Origin: Shigella phage JK55
Reading direction: 5' to 3' (one strand)
Length of the DNA stretch: 64,000 bases
Sequence record: MK962758
In this document: positions 13,942-32,369 of the stretch, piece by piece
How positions within the stretch are numbered: position 1 is the stretch's first letter
Layout: every line of letters begins with the position of its first letter
Made by a program: the position numbers and the translations under genes
Notes under the pieces: model-generated
What the model saw: the letters and a program-made list of their open reading frames with translations, nothing else
Told to the model about the DNA's origin: nothing
Database searches by the model: none

Positions 13942-14288
13942 ACGTCTTATCAAATCCCTTATACAACCCTTTCCCTTTCCTTTCCAGAATCTTATCAGAC
14001 CTTAAAAGCAATAACTCTATAGCTTACTCTATAGCCTTTTATTAAATCAACTTAAATATAAGCCCATAACCCGAAAGGGAAGGGCAACCATTTAAACGCT
14101 CTATAAAGCCCTATAACGGCCTTATTAACCTAACTTAAGGGATTGCATTACCTCACCCTTAAAAGCCCTTTATAAAGCTTCCCAGAGCCTTAAAAGAATC
14201 TTATAAGGGTATAAGCTTTATTATCTCGTTAGCTATCTTGTGAATAACTAAAAAGGGCTTGTTAGTGTCTTAAAAGTATGTTATAGGG

Positions 14289-14347
14289 GCTTAAAAGTTA
14301 CTTTGAAGTAGCTTAAAAGTTACTTTGAAGTAGCTTAAAAGTTACGT
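14289..14347. repeat. short tandem repeat, about 2.6 copies of 22-bp unit GCTTAAAAGTTACTTTGAAGTA
   Basis: Read directly: ...GGGGCTTAAAAGTTACTTTGAAGTAGCTTAAAAGTTACTTTGAAGTAGCTTAAAAGTTACG. Confidence 0.8.
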
Positions 14348-23908: not shown

Positions 23909-25324
23909 ATGAGCGAATTATTTAAACATGCGCACCTTCATGCAGGTCGAACTGAAAATGGTGCTGTAAACCATACTTCATCAATGTCTGCTCTAGTAAA
24001 CTTTTACAAAGCTGCTGGTTCAAGCCGTAGCAATGTAGAAATCTTACCAGACCTGTTCTACAAAGCTTTGCGTGAGGATGTTGATGTTGCAGTTCGTATT
24101 TTACTGCATATGCGAGATGTACGAGAAGGTATGGGTGAGCGTAAAGCCTTCAGAACTGTTTTGCTTCAAGCAATTGAAGACAAAGTTTTAGAGCCTACAC
24201 AGGTTCTTCGCATTATGGATAAGGTTGCAGAACTTGGTCGTTTTGATGACTTCAAAATCTTCGTAGGTACTCGTTTCGAGACGGATGCCTTCAAACATTT
24301 AGAGGCAGCATTACTAGACCCTGCAACAGCAGGTTTGGCAGCTAAGTGGTTACCACGAGTCAAACCACGTCATAAGCAGTTTGTAAAACGTTTCTGCAAG
24401 TTTGCCAACTTGAGTGAGAAAGAGTACCGCACACTGTTATCTGCACTGTCTGATACGGTTGAGCAAAAAATCTCTGCTAATGAGTTTGGTAAGATTGACT
24501 ACAGCAAGATTCCTTCACTCGCTGCTGCACGTTACCAAAAGCTCTTTAACCGTAAAGATGGAGAACGTTACAAAGCTTACATCGAATCACTCTCAAAGGG
24601 TGAGGCTAAGATTAACGCTGGTGCTGTTTATCCATACGATGTGATTAAGTCTATCAAGCATGGTAATGCAGATGTTGCCAATGAGCAGTGGAAAGCACTA
24701 CCAAACTGGATGGCAGAAGGTGAGAACATCTTGTGTATGACTGATGTTTCAAGCTCAATGTCTTGGGTGAATCTTGGTTCAATCACTGCTCTGGATATTG
24801 GTGTATCACTTGCCTTGTATGTAGCAGAACGCAATACAGGTTGCTTTAAGAATGAGTTAATGGTTTATTCAACAAACCCTCACTTCATCGAACTGAGTGG
24901 TGATTTACGAAACCGTCATCGTCAGGTGATGCGACACGTTGAATATGGCTCAACTAACTTACAAGCAGCTTTTGACCGCATTCTTGAAACAGGTAAAAGA
25001 AACAACTTGACTCAGAAAGATATGCCAAGTAAGCTTATCATCTTCTCCGATATGGAGTTCAATCAGGTTGATGGAGCTAACGGTCGTACAAACTTTGAAG
25101 CAATTCAGAGTAAGTACAAAAAAGCTGGATATGAGATGCCACAACTGGTATTCTGGTACTTAGCAAACCGTAATGGTACTTGCGAAGTGTCTGTTAAGGA
25201 TAACGGTGTAGCAATGGTATCTGGTTTCTCTCCAGCCACTTTAAAAGCTTTGCTTGGTGGTGAGAAGTTTGACCCAATCAGTGTAATGCTCAAAGCAGTA
25301 ATGATTGACCGTTACATCTGGTAA
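23909..25324 (+). CDS. vWA-domain protein with MIDAS motif (DUF2828-like or Ro60/TROVE-like; unresolved)
   Basis: MIDAS-type DxSxS motif (CMTDVSSSMS) at about residue 280; N-terminal TENGA motif; lies directly upstream of the tRNA array. Confidence 0.5.
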   Translation: MSELFKHAHLHAGRTENGAVNHTSSMSALVNFYKAAGSSRSNVEILPDLFYKALREDVDVAVRILLHMRDVREGMGERKAFRTVLLQAIEDKVLEPTQVLRIMDKVAELGRFDDFKIFVGTRFETDAFKHLEAALLDPATAGLAAKWLPRVKPRHKQFVKRFCKFANLSEKEYRTLLSALSDTVEQKISANEFGKIDYSKIPSLAAARYQKLFNRKDGERYKAYIESLSKGEAKINAGAVYPYDVIKSIKHGNADVANEQWKALPNWMAEGENILCMTDVSSSMSWVNLGSITALDIGVSLALYVAERNTGCFKNELMVYSTNPHFIELSGDLRNRHRQVMRHVEYGSTNLQAAFDRILETGKRNNLTQKDMPSKLIIFSDMEFNQVDGANGRTNFEAIQSKYKKAGYEMPQLVFWYLANRNGTCEVSVKDNGVAMVSGFSPATLKALLGGEKFDPISVMLKAVMIDRYIW

Positions 25325-25342
25325 AAAGTTTCAAAAAGGGTA

Positions 25343-25371
25343 TTGACAATGTGTTTGATACCCTTTAATAT
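25343..25371 (+). promoter_or_regulatory. sigma70-like promoter ahead of tRNA cluster (TTGACA-17-TAATAT)
   Basis: -35 25343-25348, -10 25366-25371. Confidence 0.55.
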
Positions 25372-25489
25372 GTTCTACATAGAAACGAAACGAGAGCTTT
25401 TCTAAGATACTGAAAAATATTTTAAAAAAGTTCTTGACAATCACTAAAAAATAATGTTAAAGTGGTTACATAGAGTTTGAAAAGTTTAT

Positions 25490-25566
25490 CTCTGTTTAGC
25501 TCAGCTTGGTAGAGCGTTCCGTTTGGGGCGGTAAGGCCGGAGGTTCAAGTCCTCCAACAGAGACCA
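25490..25566 (+). tRNA. tRNA-Pro (anticodon TGG)
   Basis: Hand-folded cloverleaf: 7-bp acceptor CTCTGTT/AACAGAG, D-arm GCTC..GAGC, anticodon loop TTTGGGG, T-arm GGAGGTTCAAGTCCTCC, CCA encoded. Confidence 0.7.
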
Positions 25567-25573
25567 AATTAAT

Positions 25574-25651
25574 GTTCCAGTAGACAAAATGGTATAGTCA
25601 CCACTCTTTCAAAGTGGATATCTGAGGGTTCAAATCCCTTCTGGAACGCCA
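25574..25651 (+). tRNA. tRNA-Glu (anticodon TTC)
   Basis: Acceptor GTTCCAG/CTGGAAC, anticodon stem CCACT/AGTGG with loop CTTTCAA, T-arm GAGGGTTCAAATCCCTT, CCA encoded. Confidence 0.6.
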
Positions 25652-25738
25652 GTTTTGACAGAAGACCAATTACAGCAAACTGAATCTACTCATCTGACAC
25701 GAAATCGGACAAAGAAGATATTTGGTCTGGTCATTAAG
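25652..25738 (+). ncRNA. repeated structured element, copy a (ACAGAAGACCAATTACAGCAA ... TTGGTCTGG)
   Basis: Shares 5' motif and covarying closing stem with copies b, c, d. Confidence 0.4.
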
Positions 25739-25741
25739 AAT

Positions 25742-25818
25742 TGCGGGTATAGAGAAAGGGCGTCTCACATGTCTCATTAGCATGGTATCGGCAGGTTCGA
25801 CTCCTGCACCCGCCTCCA
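25742..25818 (+). tRNA. tRNA-Met or Ile2 (anticodon CAT)
   Basis: Anticodon loop CTCATTA, T-arm GCAGGTTCGACTCCTGC, acceptor about 6/7 bp, CCA encoded. Confidence 0.55.
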
Positions 25819-25819
25819 A

Positions 25820-25892
25820 ATTTACAGAAGACCGTTTACAGCAATACTTATTAAATTTTTAGCGGAAAAATTGAAAGATGCGGTCTGGTAAT
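25820..25892 (+). ncRNA. repeated structured element, copy b (ACAGAAGACCGTTTACAGCAA ... CGGTCTGG)
   Basis: As above; closing stem AGACCG/CGGTCT. Confidence 0.4.
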
Positions 25893-25901
25893 ACTAAACA
25901 T

Positions 25902-25975
25902 GGTTAGGAAGCACATAAGGTATGTGCGGTCGCCTGTTAAGCGAATGGCACAGGGTTCGAATCCCTGACTAACCG
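25902..25975 (+). tRNA. tRNA-Asn (anticodon GTT)
   Basis: D-arm GCAC..GTGC, anticodon loop CTGTTAA, T-arm CAGGGTTCGAATCCCTG; no CCA encoded. Confidence 0.55.
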
Positions 25976-25986
25976 CAAAATTTAAA

Positions 25987-26075
25987 TGTGTCGTTATCCC
26001 GTAGATGGTAGCGGTGGGGACTGTAAATCCCTTGTCATTGAGACTCGGTAGGTTCGACTCCTACACGGCACACCA
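25987..26075 (+). tRNA. tRNA-Tyr (anticodon GTA), long variable arm
   Basis: Anticodon loop CTGTAAA, about 15-nt variable arm, T-arm GTAGGTTCGACTCCTAC, CCA encoded. Confidence 0.6.
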
Positions 26076-26080
26076 ATAAA

Positions 26081-26158
26081 GGTTATGTAGTTTAATTTGG
26101 TTAAAATACTCCCCTGTCACGGGAGATGATGAGGGTTCAAATCCCTTCGTAACCGCCA
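26081..26158 (+). tRNA. tRNA-Asp (anticodon GTC)
   Basis: Anticodon stem CTCCC/GGGAG with loop CTGTCAC, T-arm GAGGGTTCAAATCCCTT, CCA encoded. Confidence 0.6.
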
Positions 26159-26216
26159 ATTTTGAGAGGGCTATTTAGCCCCTCCCTTAAAGAGTTCTTA
26201 CGAGTATTCTTTAAAG

Positions 26217-26296
26217 GAGTAGAAGACCAAATACAGCAAGAATGTATGATATTTTCAAGCCAATTCAATTTTGAAAAAATTTAAAACTTGGTCTGG
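26217..26296 (+). ncRNA. repeated structured element, copy c (AGAAGACCAAATACAGCAA ... TTGGTCTGG)
   Basis: As above; closing stem AGACCAA/TTGGTCT. Confidence 0.4.
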
Positions 26297-26306
26297 CTCA
26301 ACAAAT

Positions 26307-26450
26307 TTACAGAAGACCGTTTACAGCAAAACTTAAACAATCTATTTCTCGGTAAAGAAAAGGCGAAGGTTCGATTCCTTCACTCGGCAGAGGTCGAGTT
26401 GGTGTAATGGTAGCACTTAAGATGATAAACAACGGTCTGGTAATTATCTT
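26307..26450 (+). ncRNA. repeated structured element, copy d, expanded; contains tRNA-like T-arm (GAAGGTTCGATTCCTTC) and D-arm-like segment
   Basis: Closing stem AGACCGTT/AACGGTCT; internal T-loop motif and TGGTGTAATGGTAGCAC D-arm-like segment, but no complete cloverleaf found. Confidence 0.35.
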
Positions 26451-26585
26451 TGTAGATAAGTTATTAAGCTTACCTGTGAGTATGCGACCACAAAGGGTGA
26501 AAGGGTAAATTCTAGATTTAAACCCAAAAAGTCACATCGCTACAGACCTTAAGCAAGTCTGGGTAGCTTATCTACAAAGATAATT
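26441..26585 (+). repeat. 19-bp perfect inverted repeat (TAATTATCTTTGTAGATAAG / CTTATCTACAAAGATAATT) enclosing 105 bp
   Basis: Arms at 26441-26460 and 26566-26584; candidate RNase III-type processing stem or miniature inverted-repeat element. Confidence 0.6.
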
Positions 26586-26589
26586 TAAT

Positions 26590-26665
26590 GGAAGTGTAGC
26601 AGAATGGTGATGCGGCAGACTTTTAATCTGACAGGCGATGGGTTCGAATCCCTCCACTTCTACCA
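26590..26665 (+). tRNA. tRNA-Lys (anticodon TTT)
   Basis: Acceptor GGAAGTG/CACTTCT, anticodon loop CTTTTAA, T-loop TTCGAAT with weak T-stem, CCA encoded. Confidence 0.5.
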
Positions 26666-26669
26666 AAAT

Positions 26670-26746
26670 GGTTCAGTCGCAGATAAGGTAATGCAAGGGT
26701 CTCATAAGCCCTATGAATGTGGGTTCGAATCCCATCTGAACCTCCA
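26670..26746 (+). tRNA. tRNA-Met or Ile2 (anticodon CAT), second copy
   Basis: Acceptor GGTTCAG/CTGAACC, anticodon stem AGGGT/GCCCT loop CTCATAA, T-arm GTGGGTTCGAATCCCAT, CCA encoded. Confidence 0.6.
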
Positions 26747-26748
26747 AT

Positions 26749-26823
26749 TGTGGGTTAGCATAAATGGTAATGCAAACGGCTGATAACCGTTAGAAGAGGG
26801 TTCGATACCCTCACCTACAACCA
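26749..26823 (+). tRNA. tRNA-Ile (anticodon GAT)
   Basis: Anticodon stem AACGG/CCGTT loop CTGATAA, T-arm GAGGGTTCGATACCCTC, CCA encoded. Confidence 0.6.
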
Positions 26824-26838
26824 AATTCAATAAAGTTG

Positions 26839-26867
26839 TTGACATTGAGATGTGACTACTTTATAGT
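26839..26867 (+). promoter_or_regulatory. sigma70-like promoter inside tRNA cluster (TTGACA-17-TATAGT)
   Basis: -35 26839-26844, -10 26862-26867; about 200 nt of non-tRNA sequence follows before the next tRNA. Confidence 0.55.
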
Positions 26868-27070
26868 ACCCTTAGTTTTCGTTGCGTAGCGTCTATTTTG
26901 CAAATTTAAAATAAATGCAAACGACAATGTTTTTCTGGCAGTAGCTTGATAGGCTAAACACCAGTGAGGTCTTCCAATCCCTCATCAAAGAATTTGGCGT
27001 ACTCGCCCACGGTATGATTAATAAGGTGGGCATCTTTAAGGGCTTTCTAAGAGAGTCTTTAAAGATTAAT

Positions 27071-27147
27071 GCACCCTTAGTTCAACTGGACAGAGCAAAT
27101 GACTTCTAATCATTGAGTTACAGGTTCGAATCCTGTAGGGTGCGCCA
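27071..27147 (+). tRNA. tRNA-Arg (anticodon TCT)
   Basis: Acceptor GCACCCT/AGGGTGC, anticodon stem AATGA/TCATT loop CTTCTAA, T-arm ACAGGTTCGAATCCTGT, CCA encoded. Confidence 0.65.
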
Positions 27148-27289
27148 ATTAGTTAGCAGATTACTTAGACGACCTAAGCGGGTCTTCCTGTAGGGAGGTG
27201 GTCTGTATCTCATGTTTTCCAGAACATGTAAATAATCTGAGAAGGGGCTTTACAGTGTTGAGATAATACGGTAAGTTTCGAATTATAGT

Positions 27290-27372
27290 ATGGGACGATG
27301 TTAAGACTCTAAGGCATGAGCAACGGCCTCCAAAACCGTTTCAAAGGGGTTCAACTCCTCCGTCCCATGCCA
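27290..27372 (+). tRNA. atypical tRNA-like gene (possible anticodon CCA in an enlarged 9-nt loop; isotype unresolved)
   Basis: Perfect acceptor ATGGGAC/GTCCCAT, T-arm AGGGGTTCAACTCCTCC, CCA encoded, but 83 nt long with about 7 extra nt between acceptor and anticodon arm; stem AACGG/CCGTT encloses CCTCCAAAA. Confidence 0.35.
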
Positions 27373-27385
27373 AAGTCTTATTAGT

Positions 27386-27473
27386 GGTAGGTAGCGGCTA
27401 ATGGTAGCCAAACTGTCTTGAAAACAGTTGCCACTGTAGAGATACGGTGAGGGTTCGACTCCTTTACTTACCG
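27386..27473 (+). tRNA. tRNA-Ser (anticodon TGA), long variable arm
   Basis: Anticodon stem ACTGT/ACAGT loop CTTGAAA, long variable arm, T-arm GAGGGTTCGACTCCTTT; no CCA encoded. Confidence 0.55.
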
Positions 27474-27730
27474 CCTAATAAGATTTAAAGCCAAGCTTCA
27501 TTCGGATGTTGCTTTGGTATCCCTCGTGTATTGTCGTACACACTAATAAAGCACCTAGTAGGTGTCACGGAGAAGAGATAATATCAAGCTCTCCAAAGGT
27601 TCTAGTCACCGGATTAAACAAGACTATGCAAAGACCTTTTTAGGTCTTTTTAGAGGGCTTCTAAGGTTATTACAGCTTGTTGTGGAACCTTGTTGCTTAG
27701 GTTCTTAGAAGTTCTCTAAAAAGGTTTAAT

Positions 27731-27808
27731 GGGAGATTGACGGTAATTGGTAAACCTATCTCGCTTAGAACGAGATGTTTGAGGGTTCGAATCCCTTGTC
27801 TCCTACCA
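27731..27808 (+). tRNA. tRNA with anticodon TAG (Leu by code) but short variable arm
   Basis: Anticodon stem TCTCG/CGAGA loop CTTAGAA, T-arm GAGGGTTCGAATCCCTT, CCA encoded; class-I length. Confidence 0.45.
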
Positions 27809-27815
27809 AATTAAT

Positions 27816-27891
27816 GCAGGTGTAGCAAAATGGTTATGCGGCTGACTCTTAATCAGTAAGACGATGGGTTCAATTCCCTCCACCTGTACCA
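27816..27891 (+). tRNA. tRNA-Lys (anticodon CTT)
   Basis: Acceptor GCAGGTG/CACCTGT, anticodon stem GCTGA/TCAGT loop CTCTTAA, T-loop TTCAATT, CCA encoded; paralog of tRNA-Lys(TTT). Confidence 0.5.
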
Positions 27892-27897
27892 AACAAT

Positions 27898-27973
27898 GGG
27901 GTCATAGTTTATATGGTTAAAATTCGAGTTTTGCAAACTTGGGAACTGAGTTCAATTCTCAGTGACTCCACCA
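27898..27973 (+). tRNA. tRNA-Ala (anticodon TGC)
   Basis: Anticodon stem CGAGT/ACTTG loop TTTGCAA, T-arm CTGAGTTCAATTCTCAG, CCA encoded. Confidence 0.5.
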
Positions 27974-27979
27974 ATTAGT

Positions 27980-28054
27980 GCATCCATAGTTTAAACGGGA
28001 AAATTACAGTCTTCCAAACTGAGGTTGAGGGTTCGATTCCCTCTGGATGCTCCA
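27980..28054 (+). tRNA. tRNA-Gly (anticodon TCC)
   Basis: Perfect acceptor GCATCCA/TGGATGC, anticodon loop CTTCCAA, T-arm GAGGGTTCGATTCCCTC, CCA encoded. Confidence 0.6.
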
Positions 28055-28060
28055 AACAAT

Positions 28061-28137
28061 GCTGCTTTCGTATAATTGGCTATTACACATCCCTTGTAAG
28101 GATGGAAATGCAGGTTCGAGTCCTGTGAGCAGCACCA
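28061..28137 (+). tRNA. tRNA-Thr (anticodon TGT)
   Basis: Anticodon stem CATCC/GGATG loop CTTGTAA, T-arm GCAGGTTCGAGTCCTGT, CCA encoded. Confidence 0.65.
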
Positions 28138-28140
28138 ATT

Positions 28141-28232
28141 CAGAGGTCAAGTGAAAGACCGCTGGTGTCAACTGAAGACCGTAACAAATTCCACGGAGTT
28201 GAGTTAGCGGCACAACTTCAGACCTCTTTCAC
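28141..28232 (+). ncRNA. structured non-tRNA element between tRNA-Thr and tRNA-Val (nested inverted repeats)
   Basis: AGAGGTC...GACCTCT outer inverted repeat, CTGAAG...CTTCAG inner repeat, contains the GAAGACCGT motif shared with copies a-d; no T-loop motif. Confidence 0.35.
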
Positions 28233-28307
28233 ACTCGCTTAGTTTATATGGTAAAACATCACCCTTACAAGATGAAGAAAAAGGTTCAAGTCCTTTAGTG
28301 AGTACCA
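28233..28307 (+). tRNA. tRNA-Val (anticodon TAC)
   Basis: Acceptor ACTCGCT/AGTGAGT, anticodon loop CTTACAA, T-arm AAGGTTCAAGTCCTT, CCA encoded. Confidence 0.5.
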
Positions 28308-28308
28308 T

Positions 28309-28386
28309 GTTCCAGTATCCCAATTGGCAGAGGATGCAAGCTCAAACCTTGTATTAGTGACGGTTCGAATCCGTCTTGGAACACCA
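28309..28386 (+). tRNA. tRNA with anticodon CAA (Leu by code) but short variable arm
   Basis: Acceptor GTTCCAG/TTGGAAC, anticodon stem GCAAG/CTTGT loop CTCAAAC, T-arm GACGGTTCGAATCCGTC, CCA encoded. Confidence 0.45.
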
Positions 28387-28405
28387 ATTTTAAGAGGCTA
28401 TTTAG

Positions 28406-28963
28406 ATGAGATATTTGAAGTATGCTTCATGGATTTTCTTAGCTTTACTAGAACCATTTGCAGCAACCCTAGCAGTCATCTTAGCACCTTTCGTAGTTCC
28501 ATTCTACAGTGAGAAGAAAGGGCATCTACCTTTTGGATTCAGATGGATGGAGACCTATGACAACCCGATTGATGGTGATAAAGGCCACGTTGAGAGATGG
28601 GCTAAGATTAGAAAGATTGGCAAGCTCGGTGTTTATATGCAGAGAGTTGGATGGCTCTGGAGAAACAAAGCTTATAACTTCTCTTACCATGTATTAGGAA
28701 GAGATGTAAAAGATGTTACTAAGTGGAAAGGTAATATCAACGTAAGTTCTGACCCTGAAGATAATCAGACAGGTTATCTCCTAATGTGGAACAACAATGC
28801 TTGGGGATTATTCGCTTTTATTCCGTCAATTAAAATCTTTGGTAAACAGTTTTACTGGAGAATTTATGTTGGATGGAAACTAAAAAGTGTTGTCCCAGAA
28901 GAAAGAGCATTCTCAAGGGAAAGAGTTATGTTGGCATTCTTTATTCATCCACTGAGAAAGTAA
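28406..28963 (+). CDS. hypothetical membrane protein embedded in tRNA cluster
   Basis: N-terminal hydrophobic segments (IFLALLEPFAATLAVILAPFVVPF); AAGAGG RBS 9 nt upstream. Confidence 0.55.
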   Translation: MRYLKYASWIFLALLEPFAATLAVILAPFVVPFYSEKKGHLPFGFRWMETYDNPIDGDKGHVERWAKIRKIGKLGVYMQRVGWLWRNKAYNFSYHVLGRDVKDVTKWKGNINVSSDPEDNQTGYLLMWNNNAWGLFAFIPSIKIFGKQFYWRIYVGWKLKSVVPEERAFSRERVMLAFFIHPLRK

Positions 28964-28971
28964 AGATTTAA

Positions 28972-29047
28972 AGGGGATTAGTTTACAAGGTTAAAACCTC
29001 GGTCTTTGAAATCGAAGAAGTTGGTTCAATTCCAACATCCCCCGCCA
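28972..29047 (+). tRNA. tRNA-Gln (anticodon TTG)
   Basis: Anticodon stem TCGGT/ATCGA loop CTTTGAA, T-arm GTTGGTTCAATTCCAAC, CCA encoded. Confidence 0.55.
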
Positions 29048-29049
29048 AT

Positions 29050-29128
29050 GCTCCATTACTCCAATTGGCAGAGAGGCCAGACTTAAAATCTGTGTTATGT
29101 ATCGGTTCGAATCCGATATGGAGTACCA
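29050..29128 (+). tRNA. tRNA with anticodon TAA (Leu by code) but short variable arm
   Basis: Acceptor GCTCCAT/ATGGAGT, anticodon loop CTTAAAA, T-arm ATCGGTTCGAATCCGAT, CCA encoded; D-arm paralogous to the CAA tRNA. Confidence 0.45.
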
Positions 29129-29133
29129 AATTT

Positions 29134-29209
29134 AGCGGTATAGCATAACTGGCAATGCAGCAGTCTCTGAAGCTGTCTTATTAAGGTTCAAATCCTTATG
29201 CCGCTGCCA
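29134..29209 (+). tRNA. tRNA-Gln (anticodon CTG)
   Basis: Acceptor AGCGGTA/TGCCGCT, anticodon loop CTCTGAA, T-arm TAAGGTTCAAATCCTTA, CCA encoded. Confidence 0.5.
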
Positions 29210-29240
29210 CTTCTAAGGGTTCTTACGAGAGTCCTTAAAT

Positions 29241-29316
29241 GTGGCCTTATCATAAATGGTAATGACCCATGCTGTGAACATGGTCTATACGGGTTCAAAT
29301 CCCGTAGGTCACCCCA
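29241..29316 (+). tRNA. tRNA-His (anticodon GTG)
   Basis: Anticodon stem CCATG/CATGG loop CTGTGAA, T-arm ACGGGTTCAAATCCCGT, CCA encoded. Confidence 0.65.
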
Positions 29317-29322
29317 ATTTAT

Positions 29323-29398
29323 AGTCCAAGTAGCTTATATGGTTAAAGCGCGTGTCTGAAAAACATGAGAAGAGGGTTCGAATCCCACTGGACTACCA
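29323..29398 (+). tRNA. tRNA-Phe (anticodon GAA)
   Basis: Anticodon stem CGTGT/ACATG loop CTGAAAA, T-loop TTCGAAT, CCA encoded. Confidence 0.55.
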
Positions 29399-29416
29399 AT
29401 TTCAAAGGTGCTTAAT

Positions 29417-30149
29417 GAAAGAGATGACAGAACAAGGTAAGGAGATTTTTAATCTCTTAAAAACCGGTAAAGGGTTTTCTAACCCACTTATTACTGGTGC
29501 AGCAGTTCTCGGTGGAACCGTAGCTGCTTCTACATCACTTGTAAGCTCTATTAGTTCTGTAACAGACCCTACAATGCAGGAGAAACTTGTTGCTGCTGGA
29601 CTTACAACAGTCCTTCTAAACAGCTTTACAACAAGCCTTACAAGCACTACAGCAACTACTAAAACTCTGACAGACTACGGTCAAAAGTCTATTGATGAGT
29701 TTTCATCACGTATGCAGGTAGCAAAGGGGTATTCCAATGTTATGGGTGCAGCAGGAGAGCAAGTTGGTTGTACACCATTCAGTGGTATCATGGGTGTTGC
29801 TACAGAGTATGGTCAAAAAGCTATTAACATGATGAACAGTACACTAGATAGTGTTAATGGTGTGTTAAGTGACTTACAAGATGCTATTGATAAGGGTCTT
29901 GATACTGTTTCTGATTTAGCTAATCAGGCTGTTAGTAAGATTAATGAAGGTATTTCAAAGATTACAGCTTATGCAGATGAAGTTGTGCAGATGATTGAAG
30001 AAGAAGCTTCCCTTATTGCAGAGTACCTTAAAACGAATATCAATGGGTTCTTAGCAGGTATCTTACCAGACTGGTTTGATGATGCCTGTAAAACTGGTGT
30101 GATTGACACTATTGCAACACCAGAAATGAAGAGCGCATTACAGAAATAA
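29417..30149 (+). CDS. hypothetical protein (Ser/Thr/Ala-rich N-terminal region) embedded in tRNA cluster
   Basis: Start moved to ATG 29417 (AAAGGTG upstream) because the track start 29352 lies inside tRNA-Phe. Confidence 0.5.
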
Positions 30150-30150
30150 T

Positions 30151-30243
30151 GGAAGATTAACCCTAAAAGGTAAGGGAGCAGTTTGCTAAACTGCCAGTAG
30201 CTGAGAAATCGGTGTACCAGTTCAAGTCTGGTATCTTCCTCCA
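30151..30243 (+). tRNA. tRNA-Ser (anticodon GCT), long variable arm
   Basis: Perfect acceptor GGAAGAT/ATCTTCC, anticodon stem GCAGT/ACTGC loop TTGCTAA, about 20-nt variable arm, T-arm ACCAGTTCAAGTCTGGT, CCA encoded. Confidence 0.7.
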
Positions 30244-30247
30244 ATTT

Positions 30248-30323
30248 GAATCCGTGACAGAAATGGATATGTGCCTGTCTGCAAAACAGGTTTATAAGGG
30301 TTCGAGTCCCTTCGGATTCTCCA
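30248..30323 (+). tRNA. tRNA-Cys (anticodon GCA)
   Basis: Perfect acceptor GAATCCG/CGGATTC, anticodon stem CCTGT/ACAGG loop CTGCAAA, T-arm AAGGGTTCGAGTCCCTT, CCA encoded. Confidence 0.7.
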
Positions 30324-30360
30324 AGTTATTTTACTCTCTCTCAATTAAAATAATAATAAT

Positions 30361-30420
30361 GCCCTGCTATAAGTATTCTTCCTTTCGCTACCGAAGAGTA
30401 TTTTTAGACAGGGCTTTTTT
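30361..30420 (+). terminator. rho-independent terminator closing the tRNA cluster
   Basis: GCCCTG...CAGGGC stem enclosing an inner hairpin, followed by TTTTTT. Confidence 0.6.
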
Positions 30421-30485
30421 ACAGAGTTATACTTTATAAGAAGGCTTATACAGTATGTCTCTGACGTACATTGTGGTTTCTCCTT

Positions 30486-30509
30486 GACGGTCTCTGTGCC
30501 GTCTTTTTT
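30486..30509 (+). terminator. rho-independent terminator (GACGG-loop-CCGTC + TTTTTT)
   Basis: 5-bp GC stem plus T-run ahead of the morphogenesis module. Confidence 0.5.
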
Positions 30510-30545
30510 AAGGAGAAACATGGTTAATTATTTGGAGAAAACATA

Positions 30546-30746
30546 ATGAGTGAGGCCGTTTATAAAGAACTTTATGAAGCTAACAAAAAGCTAGAATTTA
30601 TGCAGAACACTATCATGGCAATTGCAGATAGATTATCTGTAGCAACAGGTATTGATATCAAAGAAGCCTCTATGGATGCACTTCTTGATGCTGTTGATGC
30701 AAAGTTCGAAGTTAAGAAAGAAGAGACTGCTACAGACTCTGAATAA
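30546..30746 (+). CDS. hypothetical small protein upstream of terminase (small-terminase candidate by position only)
   Basis: 66-aa ORF immediately 5' of the large terminase gene. Confidence 0.35.
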   Translation: MSEAVYKELYEANKKLEFMQNTIMAIADRLSVATGIDIKEASMDALLDAVDAKFEVKKEETATDSE

Positions 30747-30767
30747 TTCTATTTGCGGAGGTGCTTA

Positions 30768-32369
30768 ATGGACTTAAATGCTGTTAAGCAGAAGCGAGTG
30801 GAAGATGTTAGGAAAGTCCTAGCTGGAGAGTTGGGGCTTTCTGATGAAGTAAAAGAAATTATCAAATCATTCGGTAAAGACCCCTCTAAATTCCTTCCAA
30901 CTCAAATTCTGACTTTATTAAGATACACACCAGACCAAGTTCGCCTTATCTTTAAGTTGATGACTGATAAGAACTATGTAGCCCCTCAGCCGGGTTCTCA
31001 AGAGGTCTTTTTAAACACTAATGCTGACTTGGTACTCTATGGTGGTGCTGCTGGTGCTGGTAAGACTGCTGCATTGTTAATGGACTCTTTAAGATTTATT
31101 GAAGACCCTAACTATAATGCTGTGTATTTCCGTCGAAACACAACACAGCTACAAGGTGGTTTATGGCCTGCTGCAAAGAAACTATTTGGTAAGTTTGGTG
31201 GGATTCCTCACGAGCAGAAAATGACTATTACATTCCCTTCTGGGGCAACTATCAAGTTTACCTACCTAGAACTTGAAAAGCACGCTGAAGGTCATCAGGG
31301 TATTGAATACTCAGCTATTTACTTTGACGAAGGTACACACTTTTCTGCTTCACAGATTTCATATCTACAAACCCGTTTACGTTCTGGTGCTGAAGGTGAT
31401 TCATACATGAAGATTTCCATGAACCCAGACAGAGACCACTTTATTTATGATTGGGTAGAACCATTCTTAGATGAAGAAGGTTATCCAGACCCTGAAAAGT
31501 GTGGTCGTATTCGTTGGTATGTAATGAATGATGGTGTGATGGTTTCTGATTGGGAGAGAGACAAGATTCTTGAAATGTTCCCTCTGGAGATTCCTCAAAC
31601 ATACACCTTCATCTCTGGTACGATTGATGATAACCCAATTCTTGACTTCTTAGAACCTAAGTACCGTGGTAAGCTGGAAAACAACACCCCTGTAAACGTT
31701 GCAAGACTTCGTTTCGGTAACTGGAAGGCTCGTGCAGAAGGTTCAAACTATTGGCAAAGGCAATGGTGTGAAATTGTTGATTCACTCCCAGAGGATGTAT
31801 TTGATGTTAGAGCATGGGACTTAGCAGCAACTTTACCATCTGAAATTAACCCTAATCCAGACTGGACAGCAGGTGTTAAGATGGGTAAATCTAAAAAAGA
31901 CGGTTGCTATTATATCATTGATGTAGTAAGATTTAGAGATAGACCCTCTGGAGTCGAAACACAAATTAATTTGACTGCTGAAAGTGACGGTAAGCGAACT
32001 GGTATTTTTATCCCTCAAGACCCAGGCGCTGCTGGTAAATCCTACGCAACATCCCTCATCAGGAAACTTGCCGAGAAAGGTTATCGAGCAAGAGCCAAAC
32101 CAACAAATAAAGATAAAGTTACCCGCTTTGCGGGGTTTTCTGCTGCTTCTGAAGCTGGACTTGTAAAAGTTTTGAGAGGTAGTTGGAACGAAGCTTATTT
32201 CCAAGAGCTTGAAGGCTTTTGTGGTGATGGCAAAACTAAAGATGACCAAGTGGATGCTACCAGTGATGCTTTCAACAGTCTTAACGAAGTTAAATTATTC
32301 AAGCCACCATCAATGGGTGCTCACACAGACTTAGTGAGAGGAAACCCATATGAGGGGCTTAGACGTTGA
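30768..32369 (+). CDS. terminase large subunit
   Basis: Walker A P-loop LYGGAAGAGKT near N-terminus; first gene of head module; start set at ATG 30768 behind GGAGG RBS (track start 30753). Confidence 0.75.
   Translation: MDLNAVKQKRVEDVRKVLAGELGLSDEVKEIIKSFGKDPSKFLPTQILTLLRYTPDQVRLIFKLMTDKNYVAPQPGSQEVFLNTNADLVLYGGAAGAGKTAALLMDSLRFIEDPNYNAVYFRRNTTQLQGGLWPAAKKLFGKFGGIPHEQKMTITFPSGATIKFTYLELEKHAEGHQGIEYSAIYFDEGTHFSASQISYLQTRLRSGAEGDSYMKISMNPDRDHFIYDWVEPFLDEEGYPDPEKCGRIRWYVMNDGVMVSDWERDKILEMFPLEIPQTYTFISGTIDDNPILDFLEPKYRGKLENNTPVNVARLRFGNWKARAEGSNYWQRQWCEIVDSLPEDVFDVRAWDLAATLPSEINPNPDWTAGVKMGKSKKDGCYYIIDVVRFRDRPSGVETQINLTAESDGKRTGIFIPQDPGAAGKSYATSLIRKLAEKGYRARAKPTNKDKVTRFAGFSAASEAGLVKVLRGSWNEAYFQELEGFCGDGKTKDDQVDATSDAFNSLNEVKLFKPPSMGAHTDLVRGNPYEGLRR

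What the first reader, a model, noticed from the sequence alone, without database searches (positions are those of the whole stretch)
26441..26585. 19-bp perfect inverted repeat enclosing 105 bp inside the tRNA transcript unit
TAATTATCTTTGTAGATAAG (26441-26460) pairs perfectly over 19 bp with CTTATCTACAAAGATAATT (26566-26584). In RNA this is a long perfect duplex of the kind cleaved by RNase III in phage polycistronic precursors; in DNA it could be the terminal inverted repeat of a miniature mobile insertion. It directly abuts repeated element d and a tRNA-Lys gene.
Basis: seen in the sequence. Interest (0 to 1): 0.5.

Follow-up and report, generated by a model that had tools for sequence, protein, structure and literature searches.

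The report
Stem of a phage Y-RNA-like RNA
The inverted repeat is real and closes a conserved, roughly 145-base folded RNA in a phage tRNA operon, next to a tRNA mimic and just downstream of a phage gene for a Ro60-like RNA-binding protein, so it is most likely part of a viral Ro/Y-RNA-type particle and not a mobile element.

Summary
A perfect 19-bp inverted repeat lies at 26442-26460 / 26567-26585. It extends to 24 pairs with G.U pairs and is the longest local inverted repeat in the window; 100 shuffles never reached it.

The window is a Felixounavirus, identical here to Escherichia phage momo. The repeat is stem P1 of a four-helix RNA conserved at the same site in Felixounavirus, Mooglevirus and Suspvirus. 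P1, P3 and P4 carry compensatory changes, and the G.U pairs fit only the tRNA-sense strand.

There is no target-site duplication and no second copy anywhere searched, so the mobile-element reading fails. RNase III cleavage of P1 is plausible but untested.

Three facts of context change the reading:
- The ORF at 23909-25324, directly upstream on the same strand, is predicted to fold like the Ro60 autoantigen.
- The element that abuts the hairpin (26307-26443) is a permuted tRNA mimic with the layout of the bacterial Y RNA YrlA.
- "Repeated element d" is the 5' half of a helix-plus-CAGCAA module. This module recurs next to Ro60-like (DUF2828) genes in many unrelated phages.

P4 of the hairpin resembles a degenerate copy of that module. 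I conclude it is a structured RNA (about 0.9) and probably a Y-RNA-like partner of the phage Ro60-like protein (about 0.5).

The parts
26442..26465 (+). P1, 5' strand. The first 19 nt (26442-26460) are the perfect repeat arm; 26461-26465 extend the helix with U.G pairs.
26562..26585 (+). P1, 3' strand. 26567-26585 is the perfect arm. 26563-26566 (GUAG) could instead pair with CUAC at 26540-26543.
   Evidence: the alternative pairing is read from the sequence
26466..26502 (+). P2 region. It holds a conserved UGAGU..GC.GA block; the pairing is not resolved and has no covariation.
26503..26525 (+). P3 hairpin tip (GGGUAAAUU-CUA-GAUUUAAACCC). The apex GAUUCUAGAUU is invariant in both interior types. 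In type B relatives the base of P3 shows 3 compensatory pairs.
26543..26561 (+). P4 hairpin (CAGAC-CUUAAGCAA-GUCUG, then G). It shares the AGAC/GUCU+G stem and the UWxAGCAA loop with modules M1-M4, so it may be a degenerate minimal module.
   Evidence: the resemblance is inference
26439..26589 (+). The whole structured RNA domain (P1-P4). It ends 4 nt before tRNA-Lys.
26590..26665 (+). tRNA-Lys(UUU). RNase P cleavage at its 5' end would set the 3' end of the hairpin RNA (inferred).
26307..26443 (+). Module M4, a YrlA-like permuted tRNA mimic. Outer helix UUAC/GUAA; inner helix AGACCG(26314-26319)/CGGUCU(26433-26438)+G; CAGCAA 26324-26329; V hairpin 26345-26360; T arm 26365-26381; closed acceptor stem 26382-26399; D arm 26401-26416.
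   Evidence: topology per PMC4201824
26215..26300 (+). Module M3 (AGACCAA 26224-26230 ... UUGGUCU 26288-26294, ACAGCAA). It holds one copy of 'element d'.
25819..25901 (+). Module M2 (AGACCGU 25829-25835 ... GCGGUCU 25880-25886), between tRNA-Met and tRNA-Asn.
25652..25741 (+). Module M1 (AGACCAA 25663-25669 ... UUGGUCU 25722-25728), between tRNA-Glu and tRNA-Met.
23909..25324 (+). Gene for a 471-aa Ro60-like protein (Pfam DUF2828 + DUF7788; predicted TROVE ring plus vWA domain).
25343..25463 (+). Two sigma-70-like promoter matches upstream of tRNA-Pro. No terminator-like site follows on the + strand before the next promoter at 26839. This is consensus prediction only.

Best explanation
The inverted repeat is the closing helix (P1, 19 perfect pairs, 24 with G.U) of a ~145-nt four-way-junction RNA. 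This RNA is transcribed as part of the phage tRNA operon.

Shown here:
- The fold is conserved with compensatory changes and is specific to the tRNA-sense strand.
- It sits 3 nt after a YrlA-like permuted tRNA mimic and 4 nt before tRNA-Lys.
- It lies 1.1 kb downstream, on the same strand, of a gene whose product is predicted to fold like Ro60.
- Four copies of a 'bulged helix + CAGCAA' module surround it. That module is specifically associated with Ro60-like DUF2828 genes in many unrelated phages.

Inferred:
- tRNA processing releases the RNA: RNase P at 26590, and an upstream cut by RNase E or RNase III.
- P1 sequesters both ends, as the terminal stem of Y RNAs does.
- The RNA acts as one of several Y-RNA-like partners of the phage Ro60-like protein. 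P4 (AGAC-CUUAAGCAA-GUCU-G) would be the protein-recognition module, and P2/P3 would be the part that engages a host factor or a target RNA.
- By analogy with Ro60/Y RNA/PNPase particles, and with the reported counter-defence role of the orthologous Bas63 gp130, the particle would remodel or degrade structured RNA, or blunt a host defence, during infection.
For: Reality of the repeat.

RNA fold:
- z = -5.46.
- There are 30 distinct homologues in two interior types.
- 98.7% of cells are paired. P1 has 4 pairs changed on both sides and P4 has 1. Sliding the partner columns drops pairing to 26-47%.
- Within type B, the base of P3 has 3 compensatory pairs.
- G.U pairs occur in P1 and P3.

Ro60-like neighbour:
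- AlphaFold2 model with mean pLDDT 87.9.
- The ten best Foldseek PDB hits are all Ro60/TROVE, full length, E 8e-9 to 4e-7.
- The PHROG name is 'RNA-binding protein'.
- An independent preprint reports that Bas63 gp130, from the same genus, is Ro60-like, lies directly upstream of the tRNA genes and counters the Ppl defence (PMC11482910).

tRNA mimic next door:
- V-T-AS-D order inside a closing stem, with covarying acceptor hairpins. This matches the YrlA description in PMC4201824.

Module family, in 75 distant DUF2828 loci:
- Noncoding [ACT]CAGCAA occurs 78 times on the sense strand and 9 times on the antisense strand.
- A fixed-offset 6-mer has its exact complement downstream at 65 of 78 sites, upstream at 2 of 78, and at about 15% of random sites.
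- The consensus includes an invariant G after the 3' strand.

P4 shares stem, flanking G and AGCAA with M1-M4.
Against: - No expression, end-mapping or binding data were available.
- P4 lacks the C of CAGCAA. AAGCAA and UAGCAA are not clearly enriched next to DUF2828 genes (sense 30 and 18, antisense 14 and 21).
- A covariance model of the hairpin finds no homologue in 75 distant DUF2828 loci. The hairpin is therefore lineage-specific, whereas the modules are general.
- The canonical Ro60-binding motifs (GGUCCGA, GNCGAAN0-1G) are absent.
- The compensatory changes come from few independent events, mainly the type A / type B split.
- Phage SP116 lacks the hairpin and is viable.
- ESCO49 keeps the hairpin without M4. 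The two are therefore separable, and the hairpin may act independently of the Ro-like system.
- A perfect 19-24 bp duplex might be cut by RNase III, which would conflict with a stable terminal stem.
Confidence: 0.5

Rival explanations
1. It is a processing signal only. P1 is an RNase III site that separates the upstream non-coding RNAs from tRNA-Lys in the polycistronic precursor, and the interior has no function of its own.
For: The duplex has 19 perfect pairs, 24 in all, without bulges. It lies in a tRNA transcription unit with no predicted internal terminator. The lower stem sequence (AAU..UCUUUG.AG) is more conserved than pairing alone requires. It is established that E. coli RNase III cleaves about 20 bp or more of dsRNA, for example the stems flanking 16S and 23S rRNA and the phage T7 early sites (my own knowledge).
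Against: The 100-nt interior has conserved, covarying helices (P3, P4) and invariant loop sequences across three genera. A bare cleavage site would not need these. Other spacers of the same operon are processed without such a stem. This explanation does not exclude the best one.
Confidence: 0.2
2. It is an independent structured non-coding RNA unrelated to the Ro60-like protein, for example a decoy or sponge for a host factor or defence nuclease, or a lineage-specific regulatory RNA that merely shares the tRNA operon.
For: The hairpin is confined to Ounavirinae, whereas the DUF2828 modules are widespread. ESCO49 keeps the hairpin after losing M3/M4. The interior behaves as an exchangeable cassette: pSJ21 and DR094 have momo-like flanks but a type B interior. 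The P3 apex can be drawn as a 7-nt anticodon-like loop, UUCUAGA (from the sequence).
Against: It is adjacent to a YrlA-like RNA and a Ro60-like gene, on the same strand. P4 resembles the module. No other partner is suggested by any search.
Confidence: 0.22
3. It is a DNA-level element: the terminal inverted repeats of a miniature transposable insertion, or a protein-binding or cruciform site.
For: The arms are perfect. The sequence left after removing the hairpin (GGUCUGGUAAU|AUUUAAU-tRNA) resembles the M2-to-tRNA-Asn junction (GGUCUGGUAAUACUAAACAU), so an ancient insertion is conceivable (from the sequence).
Against: Single copy. Only at the syntenic site in 251 phage records. No match in E. 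coli genomes. Only isolated single-arm hits in 596 Gb of genomes. No target-site duplication. The arms change by compensatory substitution, and the G.U pairs would be A.C mismatches on the other strand. The natural deletions are imprecise.
Confidence: 0.03

Closest known systems
Bacterial and phage Y RNAs (D. radiodurans Yrn1; S. Typhimurium YrlA/YrlB; Thermus phage phiLo Yrl1/Yrl2)
   Same: A small RNA whose 5' and 3' ends form a long stem enclosing a structured module. It is encoded within about 1 kb of a Ro60-type gene on the same strand and accompanied by a tRNA-mimicking RNA. More than one such RNA occurs per locus (PMC4201824, PMC12135203).
   Different: The protein belongs to the DUF2828 family and resembles Ro60 only in predicted fold; it has no sequence-level hit to any solved structure. 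The GGUCCGA, GNCGAA and CGAA motifs are absent, and the conserved motif of this family is CAGCAA next to a bulged helix. The RNAs are embedded in a tRNA operon instead of lying next to rtcBA. The hairpin itself has no tRNA-like arms. Binding is untested.
YrlA tRNA-like domain (applies to the abutting element M4, not to the hairpin)
   Same: The order is V - T arm - closed acceptor stem-loop - D arm inside a closing stem. It has U8, A14, G18G19, A21 and a GGUUCGAUUCC T loop, and a covarying acceptor hairpin that carries GCCA in Michonne.
   Different: The 5' motif is UACAGCAA, not GNCGAAN0-1G. The Rfam scan reports no match over M4.
RNase III processing stems (the stems flanking 16S/23S rRNA; phage T7 R1.1-type sites)
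   Same: A long duplex formed by sequences that flank a structured RNA within a polycistronic precursor.
   Different: Cleavage is not shown. T7-type sites carry internal loops. Here the payload is only about 100 nt and is itself conserved.
Stable RNAs of the phage T4 tRNA cluster (species 1 / species 2, rnaC/rnaD); from my own knowledge, not tested here
   Same: Non-tRNA stable RNAs that are co-transcribed and co-processed with phage tRNAs and have no known function.
   Different: No sequence or structure comparison was made, and to my knowledge T4 has no Ro60-like gene.
MITEs / small palindromic insertions
   Same: Perfect terminal inverted repeats enclosing about 100 bp.
   Different: No target-site duplication, one copy, no empty sites, and covariation that is specific to RNA.

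Membership tests
Y RNA (Ro60 partner RNA) | The 5' and 3' ends pair into a long terminal stem that encloses an internal loop or multi-helix module | tested here: met
   P1 has 24 bp and encloses P2-P4
Y RNA (Ro60 partner RNA) | Encoded close to a Ro60 orthologue, on the same strand | tested here: met
   The Ro60-like ORF ends at 25324 and the hairpin starts at 26442, both on the + strand. Fold match to Ro60. The 4-kb criterion is from PMC4201824.
Y RNA (Ro60 partner RNA) | Conserved Ro60-binding motif in the stem (GGUCCGA with a bulged helix, or GNCGAAN0-1G / CGAA) | tested here: not met
   None of these motifs occurs in 26439-26589 (sequence). Only an AGCAA loop resembling the family's CAGCAA module is present.
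Y RNA (Ro60 partner RNA) | Physically bound by the Ro60-type protein | not testable with these tools
   Needs immunoprecipitation or EMSA
DUF2828-associated helix+CAGCAA module (defined here) | A|G-R-N-U-N-N stem, then N-U-W-CAGCAA, a payload, the complementary strand ending C-U, then an invariant G | tested here: inconclusive
   M1-M4 meet it. P4 of the hairpin has AGAC/GUCU+G and UUA-AGCAA but has A in place of C, a 4-5 bp stem and no payload. The A/U variants are not enriched family-wide.
RNase III substrate | About 20 bp or more of uninterrupted dsRNA | tested here: met
   19 perfect pairs, 24 with G.U
RNase III substrate | Staggered cleavage in the stem in vivo or in vitro | not testable with these tools
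   Needs end mapping in rnc+ and rnc- hosts
MITE / transposon remnant | Multiple copies, or copies at non-syntenic sites | tested here: not met
MITE / transposon remnant | Target-site duplication flanking the terminal repeats | tested here: not met
   The flanks are ...GGTCTGGT | and | TAATGGAAG, with no direct repeat
Intrinsic terminator | A G+C-rich hairpin followed by a U run | tested here: not met
   No terminator-like site at 26442-26600 on the + strand; the stem is followed by UAAUGG
Any Rfam 15 family | A covariance-model match | tested here: not met
   No match with E <= 1 overlaps 26159-26589
tRNA | A cloverleaf with canonical D and T loops | tested here: not met
   ARAGORN and Rfam call nothing in 26439-26589. 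The four-way topology and a possible UUCUAGA loop are the only resemblances.

The most novel reading that the evidence does not exclude
The hairpin and the four 'element d' modules are the previously unidentified RNA partners of a large phage family of Ro60-like (DUF2828) proteins. This would be a new class of Y-like RNAs, defined by a bulged helix plus CAGCAA, embedded in phage tRNA arrays. The Ounavirinae-specific hairpin would be the effector RNA through which the particle counters host defence (for example Ppl) or handles damaged tRNA.
Probability: 0.3. Interest if true: 0.8.

Novelty: new variant of a known kind. Interest (0 to 1): 0.6.

Why it matters
Ro60/Y RNA particles are well known in animals and in a few bacteria, but their role in phages is barely explored. 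A preprint shows that the Ro60-like protein of a phage of this genus (Bas63 gp130) counters a host defence, and it only guesses that some 'tRNA genes' are its Y RNAs.

The present analysis points to concrete candidate RNAs with coordinates: four helix+CAGCAA modules, one of them a tRNA mimic, plus this hairpin. It also shows that the module recurs beside DUF2828 genes in many unrelated phages.

That makes the question 'which RNAs does a phage Ro60-like protein bind, and what for' directly testable by immunoprecipitation, mutagenesis and end mapping.

If the hairpin is instead only an RNase III site, it is an ordinary processing signal.

Tried and rejected
- Rfam scan of 24500-31000 at E <= 1: nothing over the spacer.
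- ORF reading: only chance ORFs of 43 aa or less over the spacer (26159-26589), and none is conserved between the interior types.
- Covariance model R1 of the hairpin against 75 distant DUF2828 loci: no homologue. The only other hits were the palindromic reverse strand and a chance hairpin at 14287.
- BLAST of the hairpin against E. coli genomes: no match.
- Exact-arm scan of GTDB genomes: 21 isolated single-arm hits in unrelated taxa (several in Veillonella), none paired. I judged them chance or unrelated.
- First IMG/VR pattern scan: about half of the 51 hits were an unrelated P-loop protein gene.
- Profile search of the Ro-like protein against PDB sequences: nothing. Only the fold search was informative.
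- A generic search for long inverted repeats near distant DUF2828 genes was uninformative, because 14-bp stems with G.U pairs are common by chance in A+T-rich DNA.
- Reading 'element d' as a promoter (TTTACA-16-AATACT, 9 of 12): rejected in favour of the RNA module, because distant phages conserve the stem complementarity and CAGCAA but not promoter hexamers.
- P2 pairing: no covariation and some broken pairs, so it is left unresolved.
- Literature searches for expression data on Felix O1-like tRNA regions found nothing usable.

Full report
**1. Observation**

The window is a Felixounavirus; the spacer around the finding is 100% identical to Escherichia phage momo MN850580. The repeat finder gives arms 26442-26463 / 26564-26585 (22 nt, 95% complementary). 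A dedicated scan gives a perfect 19-bp repeat at 26442-26460 / 26567-26585, the longest local inverted repeat in the 64 kb. In 100 dinucleotide-preserving shuffles the longest was 10-17 bp. The arm has no other copy in the window. The stretch folds as RNA at -46.3 kcal/mol with z = -5.46. It lies in the 431-nt spacer between tRNA-Asp (26081-26158) and tRNA-Lys(UUU) (26590-26665), inside a cluster of 25 tRNA genes that are all on the + strand. No ORF longer than 43 aa covers the spacer itself (26159-26589), and no Rfam family matches it at E <= 1.

**2. Anatomy and conservation**

The spacer, with almost the same length, is present in 251 phage records. All but a few are Ounavirinae of the genera Felixounavirus, Mooglevirus and Suspvirus. 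I collected 30 distinct versions of the hairpin. They fall into two interior types.
- Type A (momo-like) is found in most Felixounavirus.
- Type B is found in Mooglevirus, Suspvirus and some Felixounavirus such as pSJ21 and DR094.
- pSJ21 and DR094 have momo-like flanks but a type B interior, so the interior behaves as an exchangeable cassette whose boundaries lie in the conserved lower stem.

All versions fold into the same plan.
- P1 is a 24-bp closing stem.
- P2 is an unresolved region carrying a conserved UGAGU..GC.GA block.
- P3 is a hairpin whose apex GAUUCUAGAUU is invariant.
- P4 is a hairpin, CAGAC-CUUAAGCAA-GUCUG in type A and CAAACC-CUUUAGCAA-GGUUUG in type B.

On a 16-sequence alignment of both types, 98.7% of cells form standard pairs. 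Four P1 pairs and one P4 pair change on both sides. Sliding the 3' partners by 1-3 columns drops pairing to 26-47% and removes all double changes. Within type B alone, the base of P3 shows three further compensatory pairs (UUUCUU/AAGAAA, UUUCCU/AGGAAA, UCUCUU/AAGAGA), while P2 shows none. Several P1 and P3 pairs are G.U, which would be A.C on the other strand. The fold therefore belongs to the + strand, the sense of the tRNAs.

One caveat applies: the number of independent substitution events is small, mainly the type A / type B split plus a few changes within type B.

**3. Not a mobile element and not a terminator**

The evidence against a mobile element is as follows.
- Single copy in the window.
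- Always at the syntenic site in relatives.
- Absent from 5,426 complete E. coli genomes.
- The exact arm gives only 21 isolated, unpaired hits in 596 Gb of species genomes.
- There is no target-site duplication.

Two natural variants show imprecise deletions. In Salmonella phage SP116, recombination between the T loop of the neighbouring tRNA mimic and the T loop of tRNA-Lys removed the 3' half of the mimic, the hairpin and most of tRNA-Lys. In ESCO49, tRNA-Asp through most of the mimic is lost but the hairpin is intact. The hairpin is therefore dispensable for plaque formation in at least one isolate and is separable from its neighbour.

No terminator-like site follows the stem. Two sigma-70-like promoters lie upstream of tRNA-Pro (25343, 25434), and the next one follows tRNA-Ile (26839). 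The hairpin is thus predicted to lie inside a tRNA transcription unit; this rests on consensus matches only.

**4. Context that changes the interpretation**

(a) A Ro60-like gene. The ORF directly upstream of the tRNA cluster on the same strand (23909-25324, 471 aa) is annotated 'vWFA protein' in the momo record.
- It matches Pfam DUF2828 + DUF7788 and PHROG 850 'RNA-binding protein'.
- It has no sequence-level match to any solved structure.
- An AlphaFold2 model from a 38-sequence alignment has mean pLDDT 87.9. Its ten best Foldseek hits in the PDB are all Ro60/TROVE proteins over the full length: Xenopus Ro60 1yvp/1yvr/2i91, human Ro60 complexes, D. radiodurans Rsr 2nvo and Thermus phage phiLo 9kop. 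E-values run from 8e-9 to 4e-7 and TM-scores reach 0.64.
- Independently, a preprint reports that gp130 of Bas63, a Felixounavirus that carries this same hairpin (H129), is structurally similar to Ro60, lies directly upstream of the tRNA genes and counters the Ppl defence system. [quoted passage not shown]

(b) A YrlA-like tRNA mimic. The element that abuts the hairpin (26307-26443) is a circularly permuted tRNA-like domain inside a closing helix. Its parts, in order:
- V hairpin, 26345-26360.
- T arm GAAGGUUCGAUUCCUUC, 26365-26381.
- A closed acceptor hairpin, ACUCGGC-AGAG-GUCGAGU.
- U8, then a D arm with A14, G18G19 and A21.

The acceptor hairpin covaries: ACACGUU/GGCGUGU in Sf19 and SUSP2, and ACCCUUC-GCCAAACA-GAAGGGU in Michonne, where it even carries GCCA. 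This is the layout described for the bacterial Y RNA YrlA (V, T, AS and D stem-loops between the strands of a stem, encoded within 4 kb of Ro60 on the same strand; PMC4201824).

(c) 'Repeated element d' is half of an RNA module. Each copy (ACAGAAGACCnnUACAGCAA) pairs with a downstream GGUCUGG. This gives four modules: M1 25663-25728, M2 25829-25886, M3 26224-26294 and M4 26314-26438. Each has:
- a 4-bp outer helix that differs between copies while staying paired (UGAC/GUCA, UUAC/GUAA, GAGU/GCUC);
- an asymmetric internal loop (AGA opposite G);
- an inner helix (AGACCNN/NNGGUCU);
- the motif CAGCAA.

(d) The module is general. I looked at 75 loci from unrelated phages that encode DUF2828 proteins 38-47% identical to this one.
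- Noncoding [ACT]CAGCAA occurs 78 times on the gene's strand and 9 times on the other.
- The 6-mer ending 3 nt before CAGCAA has its exact complement within 270 nt downstream at 65 of 78 sites. The figures are 2 of 78 upstream and about 15% at random noncoding sites.
- 39 of the 75 loci have at least one such module, mostly just upstream or just downstream of the gene.
- In every one of these loci, all tRNA genes that ARAGORN finds lie on the gene's strand.
- The consensus is A|G-R-N-U-N-N-N-U-W-CAGCAA ... N-N-A-N-Y-C|U-G, and the G after the 3' strand is present in 66 of 67 instances.
- Payloads fall into a short class (about 44-69 nt, like M1-M3) and longer classes. At least some of the longer ones are tRNA-like, in L067, L104, L123, L129 and L135/136.

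The canonical Y-RNA motifs GGUCCGA and GNCGAA are not used. CAGCAA next to a bulged helix seems to take their place; that it is the binding site is inference.

**5. How the hairpin fits**

P1 begins 3 nt after the invariant G that ends M4, and P1 ends 4 nt before tRNA-Lys. P4 reads A-GAC-C-UUA-AGCAA-GUC-U-G. It has the closing A-U and G-C pairs, the flanking G, the U-W positions and the AGCAA of the module, and the same AGAC/GUCU stem as M1-M4 of this genome. It has A (U in type B) where the module has C, only 4-5 pairs, and no payload. In distant phages AAGCAA and UAGCAA are not clearly enriched, so P4's membership is uncertain.

A covariance model of the whole hairpin finds nothing in the 75 distant loci. 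The hairpin is therefore an Ounavirinae-specific addition to a general system.

One detail is unresolved. GUAG at 26563-26566 can pair with UUAU at 26461-26464, extending P1 with G.U pairs, or with CUAC at 26540-26543, giving P4 a module-like outer helix with a GG bulge. Both pairings are conserved in both interior types.

**6. Most likely mechanism**

Shown: this is a conserved, strand-specific, multi-helix RNA fold in a tRNA operon, beside a YrlA-like RNA, four helix+CAGCAA modules and a Ro60-like gene.

Inferred: the RNA is released by tRNA processing, with RNase P at 26590 and RNase E or RNase III upstream. P1 sequesters its ends as the terminal stem of Y RNAs does. It then joins the phage Ro60-like protein as one of several Y-like RNAs.

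By analogy with the Ro60/Y RNA/PNPase particles of D. radiodurans and Salmonella, and with phiLo Ro60-Yrl-PNPase (PMC12135203), the particle would tether a host RNA-decay or repair enzyme, or gate access of structured RNAs. This is consistent with the counter-defence phenotype of Bas63 gp130.

Confidence: about 0.9 that it is a functional structured RNA, and about 0.5 that it works with the Ro60-like protein.

**7. Rivals**

- A pure RNase III processing signal (0.2). It does not exclude the best explanation, but it does not explain the conserved interior.
- An independent RNA unrelated to the Ro-like protein (0.22). Its lineage restriction and its retention in ESCO49 without M4 support this.
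- A DNA-level or mobile element (0.03).

**8. Novelty**

Three things are already known: Ro60-like proteins and Y RNAs in some phages (PMC4201824, PMC12135203), Ro/TROVE genes in jumbo phages (PMC7824862), and the Ro60-like fold of the Felixounavirus protein (PMC11482910). I found no description of the hairpin, of the YrlA-like mimic in this genus, or of the helix+CAGCAA module. The library does not hold most papers from subscription journals, so this is absence in what I could search. I rate the finding a new variant of a known kind.

Noticed in passing
window 23909-25324 (+): This 471-aa ORF (DUF2828 + DUF7788, annotated 'vWFA protein') is predicted to fold like the Ro60 autoantigen (TROVE ring plus vWA domain). 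Its family has thousands of phage members, many of them next to tRNA arrays.
   Followed up: yes
window 26307-26443 (+): A circularly permuted tRNA mimic with the YrlA layout (V, T, closed acceptor, D). Its acceptor hairpin covaries, and in Citrobacter phage Michonne it ends in GCCA. It is not annotated in any record I saw.
   Followed up: yes
window 25652-25741, 25819-25901, 26215-26300 (+); loci L064-L138: 'Element d' is the 5' half of a bulged-helix + CAGCAA RNA module. In 75 distant phage loci encoding DUF2828, the motif is 78 sense versus 9 antisense in noncoding DNA, and 65 of 78 sites have the matching downstream strand followed by an invariant G.
   Followed up: yes
L139 (Salmonella phage SP116) 1530-1560; L140 (ESCO49) 1356-1400: Natural deletions. 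SP116 lost the 3' half of the mimic, the hairpin and tRNA-Lys by recombination between two T loops. ESCO49 lost tRNA-Asp through most of the mimic but kept the hairpin.
   Followed up: yes
window 26510-26516: The P3 apex holds an invariant palindrome, UCUAGA. It could form a 7-nt anticodon-like loop UUCUAGA (anticodon CUA) or a self-complementary kissing loop. CTAG is under-represented in the window (113 observed, about 226 expected).
   Followed up: partly
window 26166-26220 (+): Two hairpins directly after tRNA-Asp (GAGAGGGCUAUUUAGCCCCUC and CCCUUAAAGAGUUCUUACGAGUAUUCUUUAAAGG) are almost invariant across three genera. Their function is unknown, and no U run follows them.
   Followed up: no
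window 26766-27070 and 27292-27375 (+): Weak sub-threshold Rfam hits to permuted tmRNA and tmRNA in the spacer after tRNA-Ile. A tRNA-like 3' half (T arm at 27348-27375) is not called by ARAGORN. A near-consensus promoter lies at 26839-26867.
   Followed up: no
window 27646-27723 (+): Another inverted repeat (20 nt, 90%, 38 nt apart) lies in the spacer before tRNA-Leu(UAG), with a weak chance-level miRNA-family Rfam hit over it.
   Followed up: no
window 14287-14342: A near-perfect palindromic or tandem stretch (AAGTTACTTTGAAGTAGCTT twice), picked up as a chance hit by the hairpin covariance model.
   Followed up: no
pSJ21 (L001), DR094 (L005) versus window: The hairpin interior behaves as a cassette. 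These Felixounavirus genomes have momo-like flanks but a Mooglevirus/Suspvirus-type interior, with the switch inside the conserved lower stem of P1.
   Followed up: partly
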